A stretch of DNA of 10,069 nt from a bacterium (GTDB lineage: Bacteria > Fidelibacterota > Marinisomatia > Marinisomatales > UBA1611): the NCBI GenBank assembly GCA_038127595.1, contig JAYPIC010000063.1, positions 1 to 10,069 on the forward strand. Reading direction: 5' to 3'. The position numbers were made by a program. This document shows, piece after piece, positions 6,001 to 10,069 of the stretch. Every line of letters begins with the position of its first letter. Within the stretch, counting starts at the first letter, position 1.

Positions 6001-9000
6001 TTGTTTTTTAAATTTTTTAACAACTTCTAAAGGTTCATCCCTATCAATGCCAATAAGCATAAGACCTTCATCTTTAAAGGGTAACCAAACTTCTTTTTCT
6101 AGATGTGGCATTTCTTGGATGCAAACAGAGCACCAACTAGCGGTGAATTGAAGAACCACAACCTGTCCTAAAAGTTCAGAGAGATTTATTCTTGTCCCAT
6201 CAAGCATATTAAACTCTAAATTTGGAGCCTTATCTCCAATTGAAACTTTATACCCTCTAGAATCAACTGCTGGCCTATTAATGATTTCTTTATATGCCTG
6301 ACTTCCATCCCTGAGGTTTCTATCTTGGCTAGAAAAATCAACTTCATATAATCCAAATTTCATTGAATAACCCTCAGCCCATTCGAAATTATCCATCAGA
6401 GACCAGTAAAAGTATCCATTTACAATCAATCCATCTTGCATAGCTTGAAAAAGCGCATACAAATACCTATTGATAAATAGTTTTCTTCTATCATCTTTAT
6501 CATCTGCAATGCCATTTTCAGTTACGATGACAGGAATTTCTAATTTACTTATCGTATTCAAAGCTTTGTAAAAACCTTCCGGGTAGATGGAATAGGGCAT
6601 ATCTGTTTGTATGTCTTGCTTTCTTTTTTCAAAAGTGAATGGTTCGTTAGGATTTAAATGGCCTTTTACGTGCCACCTTGAGTAATAATTTAAACCAATA
6701 AAATCTAAAGCTTTAATCGCTTTAGTATTTGTGTAAGATAGATCTGCCATACCTGGTAGATAAAATCTGAATTCTCCTTTCAATAATAGATCTATTGTGC
6801 TATTTGTGAATATATCATTTAAGATCTTGCTAAAATACCAATCTAAAACATGCCATCTCCGTAGTGGATCAAACTGAGTGATATTTTTTACAAGACCAAT
6901 TTGTGATTGATCTCCATTTTTTAATGATTTTAAAAGGTGGTACACCTCTGTGTGAGCATACAAAAGATTCTTCATCACCTCGCCAGCTAGTAAGGGATCC
7001 TTTTTGCCTGGTGGAAATACACCATTAAAATAACCTTGTGATACATAAACTGCTGGCTCATTTATCGTACACCAGTACTTTACAATGTCCGATAATTCGT
7101 TAAATATTAGCTCCGAAAATTCTAAAAAGTATTTAATATTTTCTTCCTTTTCAAAACCACCCAGGTCCTCAAACCATAAAGGATGTGTAAAATGATGTAG
7201 AGTAACCACAGGAACTAACCCTGAATCAATTAGGGCTATACAAACTTCGCGGTAATGATCTATGGCATCTTGATCTATCTTATTAATAGTTGGCATTATT
7301 TTACTCCATTCAACAGAGAATCTGTAAGCATTAACGCCAATATTTTTCATTAGATTAATATCTTGTTTATAAAGATTCCAGTGGTCTGCAGCATCACCTG
7401 ACTTATCACTATTATGTATTCTAGATTTACCATTTTGATCAAACGAATGTTCCCATCTATACCAGTTGTTATTTGTATTGAATCCTTCCACTTGATGCGC
7501 AGCAGTGGCTGTTCCCCAAATAAAATTCTTAGGAAAATACATGTCTTTGGTATTTATATTTTCCCAGTCCCACTCAACATCTGGGTACTTATCATTTAAA
7601 TAAATTATGGATCCAACCCAAACAGTACCCAAAAGTAAAACAAGAATTTTAAATATTTTTTTAATGTTCAAATTTCAAACCCGTTTTCTTCCATCCAACT
7701 ATCATTTGGAAATTTCGTCATATAGTTTCGAATCCCATCAGCGAGTATAACTAAACAGTTCTGACCATTTTTAAGCTTTGATGCCGCTTTCAATGCTGCA
7801 ACCATCGTAGCTCCGCATGAGCCTCCACATAATAAACCTTCTTCTTTAATTAATCGTCGAGCCATAATGAAAGATTCTTCATCTTTTGTTTTAATATATT
7901 CATCAATTAAAGAATTATCTAATACATCTGGAATAAAGTCATATCCAATTCCTTCAACTAAATATGAGCTTACTTTGTCGCCACCTCCTAAAATAGAGCC
8001 TTCGGGGTCAGCTCCTATAATTTTGATTTTGGGCATTTCTTCTTTTAACCTTTTCGCAATTCCGGTGATTGTTCCTCCTGTACCAACAGATATAACAACC
8101 ATGTCTAAATTATTATTAAAGTCTTTAATTATTTCTTCAGCGGTACCATAATAATGAGCTTCAGGATTTGATGGATTTGAATATTGATCTAGAATATGGG
8201 AGTTTTCTATTTCTTTATTTAATTTTTTTGCCACAGAAATATGACTCTCTGGATCGCTTGATTTAGCTTCGGTTGGAGTTCTAATAATTTCAGCACCCAA
8301 TGCCTCGAGAGCTATCTGTTTTTCTTTACTCATTTTTTCTGGCATCGTAATAATACATTTATATCCCTTAACCGCAGCTGCTAATGCTATACCTTGGCCA
8401 GTATTCCCTGATGTTGGTTCGATAAGTGTATCTCCAGGTTTAATTCTTCCAGAAAGTTCAGCTTCTTTTACCATATTCCATCCTATTCTATCTTTCACTG
8501 ATCCGCCTGGATTAAAGAATTCACACTTAGCAAAAACATTGCAATCTAGATTCTTTGCAATTTTATTTATTTTGACTACCGGGGTGTTGCCAATGGTGCT
8601 TAAAATATTTTCATGTATCATTTGTTTATGTTAATTAGTTAAAATTGTGTTCTATATTATTAAATAGTCTATGCAATATAAATGTGTTATTTCGTAAATA
8701 TGCACAATAAAAAATGATAAACCAATCTCATAAATTATCCGGTCCATTTTTAATTGATCTAAAAAATAGGTTCAGGCAAATAGCTGGAAGTGATAATAAA
8801 ATCGATAGGAAAGAATTTAAGAACGGCCTATTAATTGATAATGATCAAATTAAAAATCGAATCTTTGACATTTTTGATACTGATCAAAATAATTTTTTGG
8901 ATATTAGAGAATTTATTGATGGTATTGAAAGATTGATTAATGGAACCACTTACGAAAAAATTAAGTTTGCTTTTCAAGTTCATGACATTGATGGAAGTGG

Positions 9001-10069
9001 AGATATTGATAAGCTTGAGTTAGAAATTTTAGTAAAAAACATTTTAATTGAAAATAATTTAGATTTTGACGCTAATCAAATATCTCTAATCGTAAGTGAT
9101 TTATTCAAAAAAGTCGACATTGATGGAAATGGCAAGATTGATTTTGATGAGTTTTTAAAATTAGTAGAGGAGTATCCTGATTTTTTAAAAAGCCTAGCTG
9201 TAAATCCTTTGTCATGGTTTTATGAAAAAGATCAAAGTAAAGATGGAGCTGCTGTTAAAAAATATAAATCGTCAGGAAAAGTTCAAATTGAAGGTTTGAG
9301 TCTAATACAATGGCTTCTAGTCCCGAGGTTAATTTATCTGTTCAATATAATTGTTAAGCGAAATTCAAATATTAAACCTATTCCAATAAAATCCGTAAAA
9401 ATATTGCCTGAAAAAAATGTGTCATTTTCTTTTGAAAAACCTAAATGGTTACAAAGTAATCCTGGTGATTATGTTTATGTTAATTGTCCTTGGGTCTCAA
9501 AGTTTCAGTGGTTTCCTTTTAACTTAATGACATCTACAAAAAATAAAATTGCCTACTTGAATATTAAAGCTAGCGGTGCCTGGTCAGAAAAAGTATATGA
9601 TAAAACTATAGCAAAATTAAATGATAGTAGCTTAGAAAAATTAAACATAAGAATAGATGGTCCATATGGATCATCTAGTAATGAAATTTTAAATTCTAAA
9701 AATATCATTCTTATTGCAGCTGGTGCAGGAATAGCAAAATTTGCTTCTATCCTCCAGGATATTGCTTTTAAAATTAAAGATAATATCGTGAAATCTGACC
9801 TTGAATCAGTTCATTTTATATGGCTGTGTGATGACAGCTTTTATGTTGAGTGGTTTAAAAAATTATTGCGAGAGCTTGATAACGAATATGAATCTATTAA
9901 TTTTAACTATGATATTTATTTTACGAAAAGAAATGCAGCTTCTTTACCAAAAGACATGCTTTATATTTCTAAAGATCTTGTTAATAACGAGTACGATATT
10001 GACCTATTAGATGGCTTAGGAAAACACAATCACATTTGTTCAACAATATGGTATGATAAGTTTAAAAAT

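What a model noticed while it worked through the whole genome (the two positions that open the first line are those of the whole stretch)
8714..10069. NOX5 without its haem membrane domain: an EF-hand plus NADPH-dehydrogenase family
This ~492-aa protein (cut by the contig end, continued on C13:37873-38079) is colinear with human NOX5 but lacks the haem-binding helices TM1-5: four EF-hands join directly to the last helix and the FAD/NADPH domain. It defines a family of predicted calcium-switched flavoreductases specific to UBA1611.
Evidence so far: Family profile hits human NOX5 best (E 9e-94) at residues 14-168, 372-475 and 509-719, skipping 169-371. The 120 listed homologues, mostly 490-507 aa, carry EF-hand and FAD/NAD-binding families and none Ferric_reduct. 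GPYG and the C-terminal Phe are kept; HPFT reads Y/FPFN. Model pLDDT 74. 4 of 151 phylum genomes, all UBA1611, always divergent from cystathionine beta-synthase. No ferric-reductase membrane domain in this genome or 3 congeners.
(Added by a program. Inside this text positions count along the whole contig: contig position 1 is position 1 of the stretch shown here. "Call 12" and the like, gene names such as g00115 and contig names such as C1 are that model's own, and its searches are not shown. The text may have been shortened before it was handed on; [...] marks where a part breaks off. The agent that wrote the report below was given it as the finding of a first reader that could run no searches.)

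Follow-up and report, generated by a model that had tools for sequence, protein, structure and literature searches.

The report
Calcium sensor from a disarmed NOX5
A marine bacterial family keeps a shortened relative of the calcium-activated oxidase NOX5 that has lost its haem-carrying membrane part and most of its cofactor-binding residues but kept its calcium-binding hands, so it most likely now works as a calcium sensor rather than an enzyme.

Summary
The ORF (8714-10069, completed on C13 to 492 aa) is NOX5 minus about 170 residues (preTM1-TM5). It occurs in 44 of 54 genomes of its family and 0 of 179 others in the order, beside cystathionine beta-synthase in 40 of 42 loci. None of 113 members matches the published NOX FAD or NADPH motif (118 full-length NOX5: 116 and 118). 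Members keep mostly 1-4 of 10 cofactor residues; this protein keeps 1 and lacks the C-terminal Phe said to be kept. EF-hands 2-4 stay canonical. The dehydrogenase part evolves 1.5-2 times faster than the EF part, the reverse of full-length NOX5, yet dN/dS is below 1. Best reading (0.55): a Ca2+-sensing pseudo-dehydrogenase. Rival (0.3): a re-tuned flavin reductase, since the isolated SpNOX domain is one. Intact NOX5 genes in multihaem-cytochrome clusters exist in 3 family genomes. No paper found; the scan noted this family once before on other DNA (e1-4767162).

The parts
8714..10069 (+). Gene for the haem-less NOX5 derivative; 452 of 492 codons, completed on C13:37873-38079 (reverse strand)
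   Evidence: 96% identical full-length homologue P0002
8714..8767 (+). Family-specific N-terminal segment (residues 1-18), the most conserved region; not conserved in full-length NOX5
   Evidence: mean column identity 0.83; family-specific near-invariant columns N3, S5, K7, L8, G10, P11, F12, N18
8768..9217 (+). NOX5-type EF-hand domain (residues 19-168): non-canonical EF1, canonical EF2 (from D55), EF3 (from D91), EF4 (from D135)
   Evidence: 18 of 22 NOX5-conserved columns kept; only EF-hand_7 match in the genome
9218..9280 (+). Variable Lys-rich linker (residues 169-189) where preTM1 and TM1-5 were deleted
   Evidence: pLDDT below 50
9281..9373 (+). Remnant of TM6 (residues 190-220; helix 197-218): still hydrophobic, now with Arg/Lys at 205 and invariant P204, N211, R216
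   Evidence: lowest dN/dS of the four regions in 6 of 9 pairs
9374..9679 (+). FAD-binding lobe with altered motif (F267-P-F-N270 for H-P-F-T); GPYG kept
9680..10069 (+). NADPH-binding lobe with altered motifs (G-A-G-I-A-K342 for GIGVTP; D373 for Arg) and a REFBD-like segment (about 404-434)
7668..8621 (-). Divergent cystathionine beta-synthase gene (317 aa); conserved neighbour, functional link not shown
   Evidence: TIGR01137, 524.8 bits against a cut-off of 510; 40 of 42 loci; also present in 4 of 4 genomes of genus g11, which lack the short form

Best explanation
A domesticated, catalytically disarmed NOX5 that serves as a cytoplasmic Ca2+ sensor or switch. SHOWN: one internal deletion removed preTM1 and TM1-5 (all four haem histidines) from a bacterial NOX5 in the ancestor of this family. 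The gene has since been kept in place under purifying selection. The Ca2+ ligands of EF2-4 were kept, while the residues that hold FAD and NADPH were replaced across the family. INFERRED: (1) it cannot make superoxide and probably does not carry out hydride transfer; (2) Ca2+ binding folds and repositions the EF domain on the retained dehydrogenase fold, as in NOX5, and the fold now acts as a scaffold that may still hold a flavin ring or nucleotide without turnover; (3) the output is a Ca2+-dependent protein-protein or membrane contact through the newly conserved surfaces (N-terminal segment, ex-TM6 helix, D349, Y377, K383, Y417). The partner is not identified.
For: Motifs of Hajjar et al. (PMC5676040, methods passage): FAD motif 0 of 113 members against 116 of 118 full-length NOX5; NADPH motif 0 of 113 against 118 of 118. 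Ten cofactor sites that I chose: 108 of 118 full-length NOX5 have 10 of 10; all 67 other complete NOX-like proteins have 8 or more; 109 of 113 members have 4 or fewer; P0002 has 1. His to Tyr/Phe in 110 of 113, Thr to Asn in 104, Pro to Arg/Lys in 113, Cys to Ser in 102; the Glu and both Arg positions are variable. In human NOX2, H338Y abolishes activity, T341K blocks FAD incorporation, P415H/L and C537R disturb diaphorase activity, and E568K and G408E impair FAD incorporation (PMC4550764, passages). 20 of 20 readable FNR-like proteins, out of 30 loci from the same phylum, keep that Pro. Rate inversion: dehydrogenase-to-EF distance is 0.56-0.74 in 92 non-animal full-length NOX5, but 1.45-1.53 (FAD lobe) and 1.89-2.22 (NADPH lobe) in the family. 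NOX5-conserved columns kept: EF 18 of 22, FAD lobe 14 of 29, NADPH lobe 12 of 41. EF2-4 canonical in 112-113 of 113. The model aligns over 402 residues with Ca-free human NOX5 8U85 (rmsd 5.3) against rmsd 11.6 for Ca-bound 8U87. It is the only EF-hand_7 match in the genome.
Against: No activity was measured. The isolated SpNOX dehydrogenase domain reduces any flavin with Km of about 8-17 uM, contacting the ring mainly through backbone, Pro, Phe and Ser (PMC11031084, section 8 and passages); the family keeps that Pro and Phe, the Trp of GxW and mostly Lys at the K250-equivalent. In SpNOX, C370A only raises Km, F397A stays active, and lack of the 2'-phosphate arginines permits NADH use (PMC11564096, section 8 part 1). 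Several replacements are conserved (N270, R/K342, S467, D349), which could be a re-tuned site. The dehydrogenase lobes are still under purifying selection (dN/dS 0.06-0.28, one value 0.54, in 9 pairs). The NOX2 disease substitutions differ in kind from some seen here. The two aspartates needed for Ca2+ activation of csNOX5 (D611, D631; PMC7317449, passages) are Asp in only 30 and 37 of 113 members, which weakens step 2. No partner was found. The gene is missing from 4 of 4 genomes of genus g11, so it is dispensable there.
Confidence: 0.55

Rival explanations
1. Ca2+-gated soluble NAD(P)H:flavin reductase or diaphorase. Without the membrane domain it uses free flavins, probably with NADH, and EF-hand movement gates hydride transfer.
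For: The FNR fold is intact (Z 22.8 to the csNOX5 dehydrogenase domain). P268, F269, W290, GPYG, G339 and G468 are kept. An acidic residue replaces the first Arg in 82 of 113, as in NADH-specific FNR enzymes (recalled, not from a call). The SpNOX dehydrogenase domain alone is a flavin reductase. An SDR gene and an FMN_red gene follow in 10 and 7 of 42 loci.
Against: Both motifs fail in 113 of 113. Arg/Lys replaces a Pro kept in 117 of 118 NOX5, 89 of 89 other NOX-like proteins and 20 of 20 readable FNR-like proteins. Pocket positions drift: the Ile of GIG is H, Y, T, A, N or K, the first Gly is D, E or S in 8 members, and the terminal residue is non-aromatic in 37 of 113. Rate inversion. The SDR and FMN_red genes remain where this gene is absent.
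Confidence: 0.3
2. Dehydrogenase subunit of a split oxidase: the ex-TM6 helix anchors it in the membrane and it feeds electrons to a separately encoded haem protein.
For: The ex-TM6 helix is as hydrophobic as real TM6 (median KD 1.56 against 1.63) and is followed by about 4 basic residues. Intact relatives lie in multihaem cytochrome clusters.
Against: Ferric_reduct passes its cut-off in only 3 of 54 family genomes, each time within the full-length NOX5. A profile of TM1-5 finds nothing in this genome; the two weak hits are an LPG synthase and CtaA. The 596-aa cytochrome of the cluster is found in only 2 of 54 genomes. A membrane-spanning helix would put the EF-hands and the dehydrogenase on opposite sides, against the modelled contact (inference). 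The cofactor sites are degenerate.
Confidence: 0.08
3. Assembly artefact or decaying pseudogene.
For: The gene is cut by a contig end here. It is split in 1 genome (G186) and missing in genus g11.
Against: 113 full-length open homologues down to about 40% identity share the same junction; 44 of 54 genomes; dN/dS below 1 in 9 of 9 pairs; conserved synteny.
Confidence: 0.02

Closest known systems
Human NOX5 (PDB 8U85/8U86/8U87/8U7Y; PMC11088703)
   Same: Colinear EF domain, TM6 start and FAD/NADPH lobes (E 2.2e-94); non-canonical EF1 with canonical EF2-4; modelled domain arrangement like the Ca-free state; a REFBD-like segment.
   Different: No preTM1 or TM1-5, no haem histidines, degenerate cofactor motifs, activation aspartates only partly kept.
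Bacterial NOX5: Cylindrospermum stagnale csNOX5 (PDB 5O0X) and the full-length 662-663 aa NOX5 of G192, G200, G203 and G378
   Same: The family nests inside this bacterial clade in both IQ-TREE trees (98/96; SH-aLRT 98); 27-33% identity in the best dehydrogenase matches and 39-49% in EF matches to the G200 protein.
   Different: These keep Ferric_reduct, HPFT, GIGVTP, CG and the terminal ENF. The Marinisomatota ones lie in multihaem-cytochrome clusters, not beside cystathionine beta-synthase. The exact sister group is unresolved.
Isolated SpNOX dehydrogenase domain and soluble FNR-family flavin reductases (PRK08051, LuxG models)
   Same: FNR fold without haem; shows that a NOX dehydrogenase domain can work alone as a flavin reductase.
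   Different: SpNOX keeps HPF(S/T), the Thr after GxG and CG and has no EF-hands. NCBIfam scores here are 23-25 bits against cut-offs of 230-340.
Calcineurin B, CBL and NCS-1 type four-EF-hand calcium sensors
   Same: Next-best matches of the EF domain (E 1e-33 to 1e-14); the proposed sensor role is alike.
   Different: These are eukaryotic stand-alone sensors with no FNR domain; the EF domain here is closer to NOX5's.

Membership tests
NOX / NOX5 | Six-helix ferric-reductase domain with two bis-His haem sites | tested here: not met
   no PF01794; all 28 conserved columns of preTM1-TM5 lost; about 170 residues missing
NOX / NOX5 | FAD motif H[PSA]F[TS][LIMV] | tested here: not met
   0 of 113 members and not in the window protein; 116 of 118 controls
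NOX / NOX5 | [quoted passage not shown] | tested here: not met
   0 of 113; 118 of 118 controls
NOX / NOX5 | CG motif and C-terminal E-x-F | tested here: not met
   Cys in 8 of 113, Glu not among the six commonest residues, Phe in 73 of 113; none in this protein
NOX5 | N-terminal four-EF-hand domain, EF2-4 canonical | tested here: met
   112-113 of 113
NOX5 | REFBD aspartates required for Ca2+ activation (csNOX5 D611, D631) | tested here: inconclusive
   Asp in 30 and 37 of 113 at the aligned columns; Asp/Glu within one column of the first in 78, Asp within three columns after the second in 89
NOX5 | Descent from the NOX5 clade | tested here: met
   nested among bacterial NOX5 in three trees
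NOX5 | Ca2+-dependent superoxide production | not testable with these tools
   needs an assay; not expected without haems
FNR-superfamily flavin reductase | Two-lobe FNR fold | tested here: met
   Z 22.8, rmsd 2.6, 236 aligned to csNOX5 dehydrogenase domain; Z 14-16 to SpNOX and cytochrome b5 reductases
FNR-superfamily flavin reductase | Ser/Thr in the flavin motif and Pro after GxGxx | tested here: not met
   Asn in 104 of 113 and Arg/Lys in 113 of 113; Pro in 20 of 20 readable phylum FNR-like proteins from 30 loci
FNR-superfamily flavin reductase | Flavin binding and NAD(P)H oxidation | not testable with these tools
   needs purified protein

The most novel reading that the evidence does not exclude
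An abundant marine bacterial family turned a eukaryote-type NOX5 into a dedicated calmodulin-like calcium-signalling protein: a naturally occurring NOX pseudoenzyme in which the EF-hand switch survived the loss of haems and catalysis and was rewired to a new target through newly conserved surfaces. It would imply cytoplasmic Ca2+ signalling in an uncultured lineage in whose genome it is the only paired-EF-hand protein found.
Probability: 0.45. Interest if true: 0.78.

Novelty: new variant of a known kind. Interest (0 to 1): 0.62.

Why it matters
In the reviews and evolutionary studies I read, NOX enzymes are defined by the haem membrane domain, and bacterial NOX5 is described as a rare, mostly cyanobacterial acquisition. 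This family is a natural, ancient experiment in removing that domain. Either result of one assay is informative. If dead, it is a NOX-derived pseudoenzyme calcium sensor in marine bacteria. If active, it shows that a NOX dehydrogenase can work with nearly all canonical cofactor residues changed. As a probably soluble EF-plus-dehydrogenase chain with an intact relative in the same family (G192 has both), it also offers a way to study how EF-hands couple to the NOX5 dehydrogenase domain, on which published models differ (PMC7317449 against PMC11088703).

Tried and rejected
Homodimer prediction (two copies plus Ca): no answer, score 0.00, neither for nor against. Folding residues 1-222 alone, to see whether the ex-TM6 helix docks on the EF domain like a calmodulin target: the helix came out at pLDDT about 41, so the idea is unsupported, although a 1-8-14 hydrophobic pattern (motif recalled) is in 111 of 113. 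Expression: contigs of 4 metatranscriptome runs cover parts of the gene, but two runs cover 28 and 30 of 30 bins of the whole window, so DNA carry-over is not excluded; not counted as evidence. Promoter scan of the 92-nt divergent gap: 2 hits against 1.8 expected. Sister group: FastTree (0.93) and a quick mixture-model IQ-TREE (SH-aLRT 83; the careful run did not finish) give the Marinisomatota full-length NOX5; a careful LG+G4 IQ-TREE gives unnamed P0302/P0306 (95/82). No AU test was run, composition differs among rows, and only subsets went into the trees (20, 10 and 6 of 113 members; 66, 51 and 29 of 118 full-length proteins). A functional link to cystathionine beta-synthase was considered and not adopted: the whole neighbourhood is syntenic and the enzyme persists without this gene. 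Split-gene partner: not found. Same architecture in other lineages: 9 mid-length candidates from the 1.84-billion-protein search were checked by Pfam; they had Ferric_reduct, lacked EF-hands, or were family fragments; only the best 150 of 7784 hits were listed. Literature: Marinimicrobia with NADPH oxidase gave 0 papers; searches listed nothing on this architecture. Most subscription journals are not covered and no supplements were read. PMC8228183 and PMC7794343 were searched for residue terms only.
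Full report
OBSERVATION. The window ends in an open 452-codon ORF at 8714-10069 (+). Its last 84 nt overlap the end of contig C13 on the reverse strand with 3 mismatches. The C13 frame runs to a stop at 37873 and gives 492 aa ending FYNNTR. Pfam finds EF-hands, FAD_binding_8 and NAD_binding_6 but no Ferric_reduct. A 105-row family profile hits human NOX5 at E 2.2e-94 in three blocks, 15-168, 372-475 and 509-719. The distance from the conserved Trp after EF4 to the Trp of TM6 is 35 residues (32-38) in 113 full-length members and 205 (189-219) in 118 full-length NOX5. 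This points to one deletion of about 170 residues, covering TM1-5 and the preTM1 helix that caps the NADPH pocket in human NOX5 (PMC11088703, parts 1-3 of 6 read). The 113 members are those of the 120 listed hits plus the query that are 480-510 aa long; 8 shorter rows were dropped.

DISTRIBUTION. The profile matches 46 of 233 genomes of the order, all in the window's family: 45 of 53 plus this genome, and 0 of 179 in 15 other families. Two of the 46 (G200, G203) hold only a full-length NOX5, so the short form is in 44 of 54. In 401 phylum genomes the single hit outside the family is another full-length NOX5 (G378). In 42 loci (41 fetched plus the window) cystathionine beta-synthase is divergent upstream in 40; the other two begin at a contig edge. 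An HSP20 gene lies downstream in 33. Genus g11 lacks the short form in 4 of 4 genomes (89-97% complete). In three of them the synthase directly abuts the usual downstream genes; the fourth locus is rearranged. So the gene is inherited vertically at one site and can be lost, and its neighbours do not by themselves indicate its function.

AN INTACT RELATIVE IN THE SAME FAMILY. G192, G200 and G203 (the last cut by a contig end) encode a canonical 662-663 aa NOX5 with Ferric_reduct, HPFT, GIGVTP, CG and terminal ENF. In G192, G200 and G378 it lies directly downstream of three multihaem cytochrome c genes (5, 4 and 10 CxxCH in G200) and a 450-500 aa gene with no Pfam match. G192 carries both forms. 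All three trees nest the short family among bacterial NOX5 (98/96; SH-aLRT 98). Two trees make the Marinisomatota NOX5 its sister (0.93; 83) and one does not, so the donor is unresolved.

WHAT WAS KEPT AND WHAT WAS LOST. Of columns at least 90% conserved in full-length NOX5, the family keeps 18 of 22 in the EF domain, 14 of 29 in the FAD lobe and 12 of 41 in the NADPH lobe. EF2-4 are canonical in 112-113 of 113; EF1 is non-canonical, as in human NOX5. The losses fall on cofactor contacts: His of HPFT to Tyr/Phe (110), Thr to Asn (104), Pro of GIGVTP to Arg/Lys (113), Cys of CG to Ser (102), both arginines that hold the NADPH phosphates replaced, and the terminal Glu lost. The terminal Phe is kept in 73 and absent from this protein. 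The mapping of those two arginines to NOX2 R446/R513 and DUOX1 R1424/R1495 is my inference from motif position; the residues are named in PMC11031084, PMC11564096 and PMC7794343 (passages). The published NOX filters (PMC5676040, passage) match 0 of 113 members against 116 and 118 of 118 controls. On ten sites that I chose, 109 of 113 members score 4 or less, while 117 of 118 NOX5 score 9 or 10 and all 67 other complete NOX-like proteins (of 90 non-family hits) score 8 or more. P0002, 96% identical to this protein, scores 1; reading the window and C13 frames directly gives the same. Several of these positions are loss-of-function sites in human NOX2 (PMC4550764, three passages).

SELECTION. In 92 non-animal full-length NOX5 the dehydrogenase lobes diverge at 0.56-0.74 of the EF rate in every distance bin. 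In the family they diverge at 1.45-1.53 (FAD lobe) and 1.89-2.22 (NADPH lobe) times the EF rate. This ratio alone cannot separate relaxation of the lobes from tightening of the EF domain. In the 9 locus pairs with dS below 1.2 (from 36 genes; the pairs are not independent), dN/dS is 0.03-0.12 for EF, 0-0.15 for the ex-TM6 helix and 0.06-0.28 for the lobes, with one value of 0.54. The fold is therefore maintained but its catalytic signature is not. New family-specific invariants cluster in the N-terminal 18 residues, the ex-TM6 helix and a set of dehydrogenase positions.

STRUCTURE. The AlphaFold2 model of P0002 (pLDDT 75, pTM 0.64) matches the csNOX5 dehydrogenase domain at Z 22.8. It aligns over 402 residues with Ca-free human NOX5 8U85 at rmsd 5.3, against 11.6 for Ca-bound 8U87, which suggests the EF-dehydrogenase packing survives. 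Against this, the two aspartates needed for csNOX5 activation (PMC7317449, passages) are only partly kept. The ex-TM6 helix is as hydrophobic as real TM6 but carries a Lys/Arg in all 113 and is flanked by basic residues on both sides. A full membrane crossing would separate the EF-hands from the dehydrogenase, so a packed or peripheral role is more likely (inference). It did not fold confidently onto the EF domain alone.

MECHANISM. Best reading (0.55): a Ca2+ sensor built on a disarmed NOX5. Ca2+ binds EF2-4 and moves the EF domain on a non-catalytic dehydrogenase scaffold, and the output is a contact through the newly conserved surfaces. Loss of the haem domain, the motif changes, the selection pattern and the intact Ca2+ ligands are shown. 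Lack of catalysis, the conformational switch and the partner are inferred. It is the only EF-hand_7 match in this 96%-complete genome. Main rival (0.3): a re-tuned soluble flavin reductase. It must be taken seriously because the isolated SpNOX domain reduces free flavins using mostly backbone contacts plus a Pro and Phe that this family keeps, and SpNOX tolerates C370A, F397A and lack of the 2'-phosphate salt bridges. A split oxidase (0.08) lacks a candidate partner. An artefact (0.02) is excluded by conservation.

KNOWN AND NEW. It descends from NOX5 but fails the haem, FAD-motif and NADPH-motif tests, so it is not a NOX; it has an FNR fold but not the FNR catalytic residues. The Atlas lists it only as automatically named clusters. 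My searches found no paper on this architecture (open-access library only). PMC3591440 and PMC9421330 (passages) describe bacterial NOX5 as rare, probably horizontally acquired, cyanobacterial genes. The scan has noted this family in another genome (e1-4767162, read there as a flavin enzyme) and, separately, a NOX5 paired with a multihaem cytochrome (e1-7753667). I saw both after forming my reading and finding the intact genes. Verdict: real, a new variant of a known kind, interest 0.62.

Noticed in passing
L045:7507-15250 (G200), L046:7229-14967 (G192), L083:2485-10258 (G378): Canonical full-length NOX5 directly downstream of three multihaem cytochrome c genes and a 450-500 aa gene without a Pfam match, all on one strand; a candidate Ca2+-gated electron-export module in Marinisomatota. 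The 596-aa cytochrome is in only 2 of 54 family genomes.
   Followed up: partly
window 5809-7671 (-): GH1 beta-glucosidase fused to a C-terminal AhpC/TSA thioredoxin-like domain (620 aa). This cluster is in 38 of 42 loci, in many as a ~165-175 aa ORF only.
   Followed up: no
window 7668-8621 (-): Cystathionine beta-synthase passes TIGR01137 but covers only positions 1-320 of the 457-position model, so it lacks the C-terminal part.
   Followed up: no
window 4552-5808 (+): Strong match (E 2e-116) to MATCAP, the microtubule-associated tyrosine carboxypeptidase family, in a bacterium; in 14 of 42 loci.
   Followed up: no
L049-L051 (G203, G200, G201): Genus g11 lacks the short NOX5 derivative at its usual site: the synthase abuts SDR, FMN_red or HSP20 genes.
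   Followed up: yes
P0071, P0077, P0108, P0121: A few members have canonical-looking residues again or still (Thr in the flavin motif, Cys in CG, or His), scoring 5-6 of 10; useful for assays.
   Followed up: no
L042:8001-9474 (G186): The gene is split into two frames (361 and 137 aa) in one 52%-complete genome; frameshift or assembly error.
   Followed up: no
ESM Atlas hit rank 9: A 488-aa plant cluster with NADPH_Ox, FAD and NAD domains and no Ferric_reduct among the three families shown; may be haem-less RBOH forms or mis-annotations.
   Followed up: no
L085 (G000:C14:12795-15782): A 996-aa frame with 8 CxxCH motifs (cbb3-type and c7-like cytochrome matches), on the same contig as a CtaA gene.
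   Followed up: no
L035:9494-11584 (-): A ClpB-like AAA gene is inserted between this gene and HSP20 in 6 of 42 loci.
   Followed up: no
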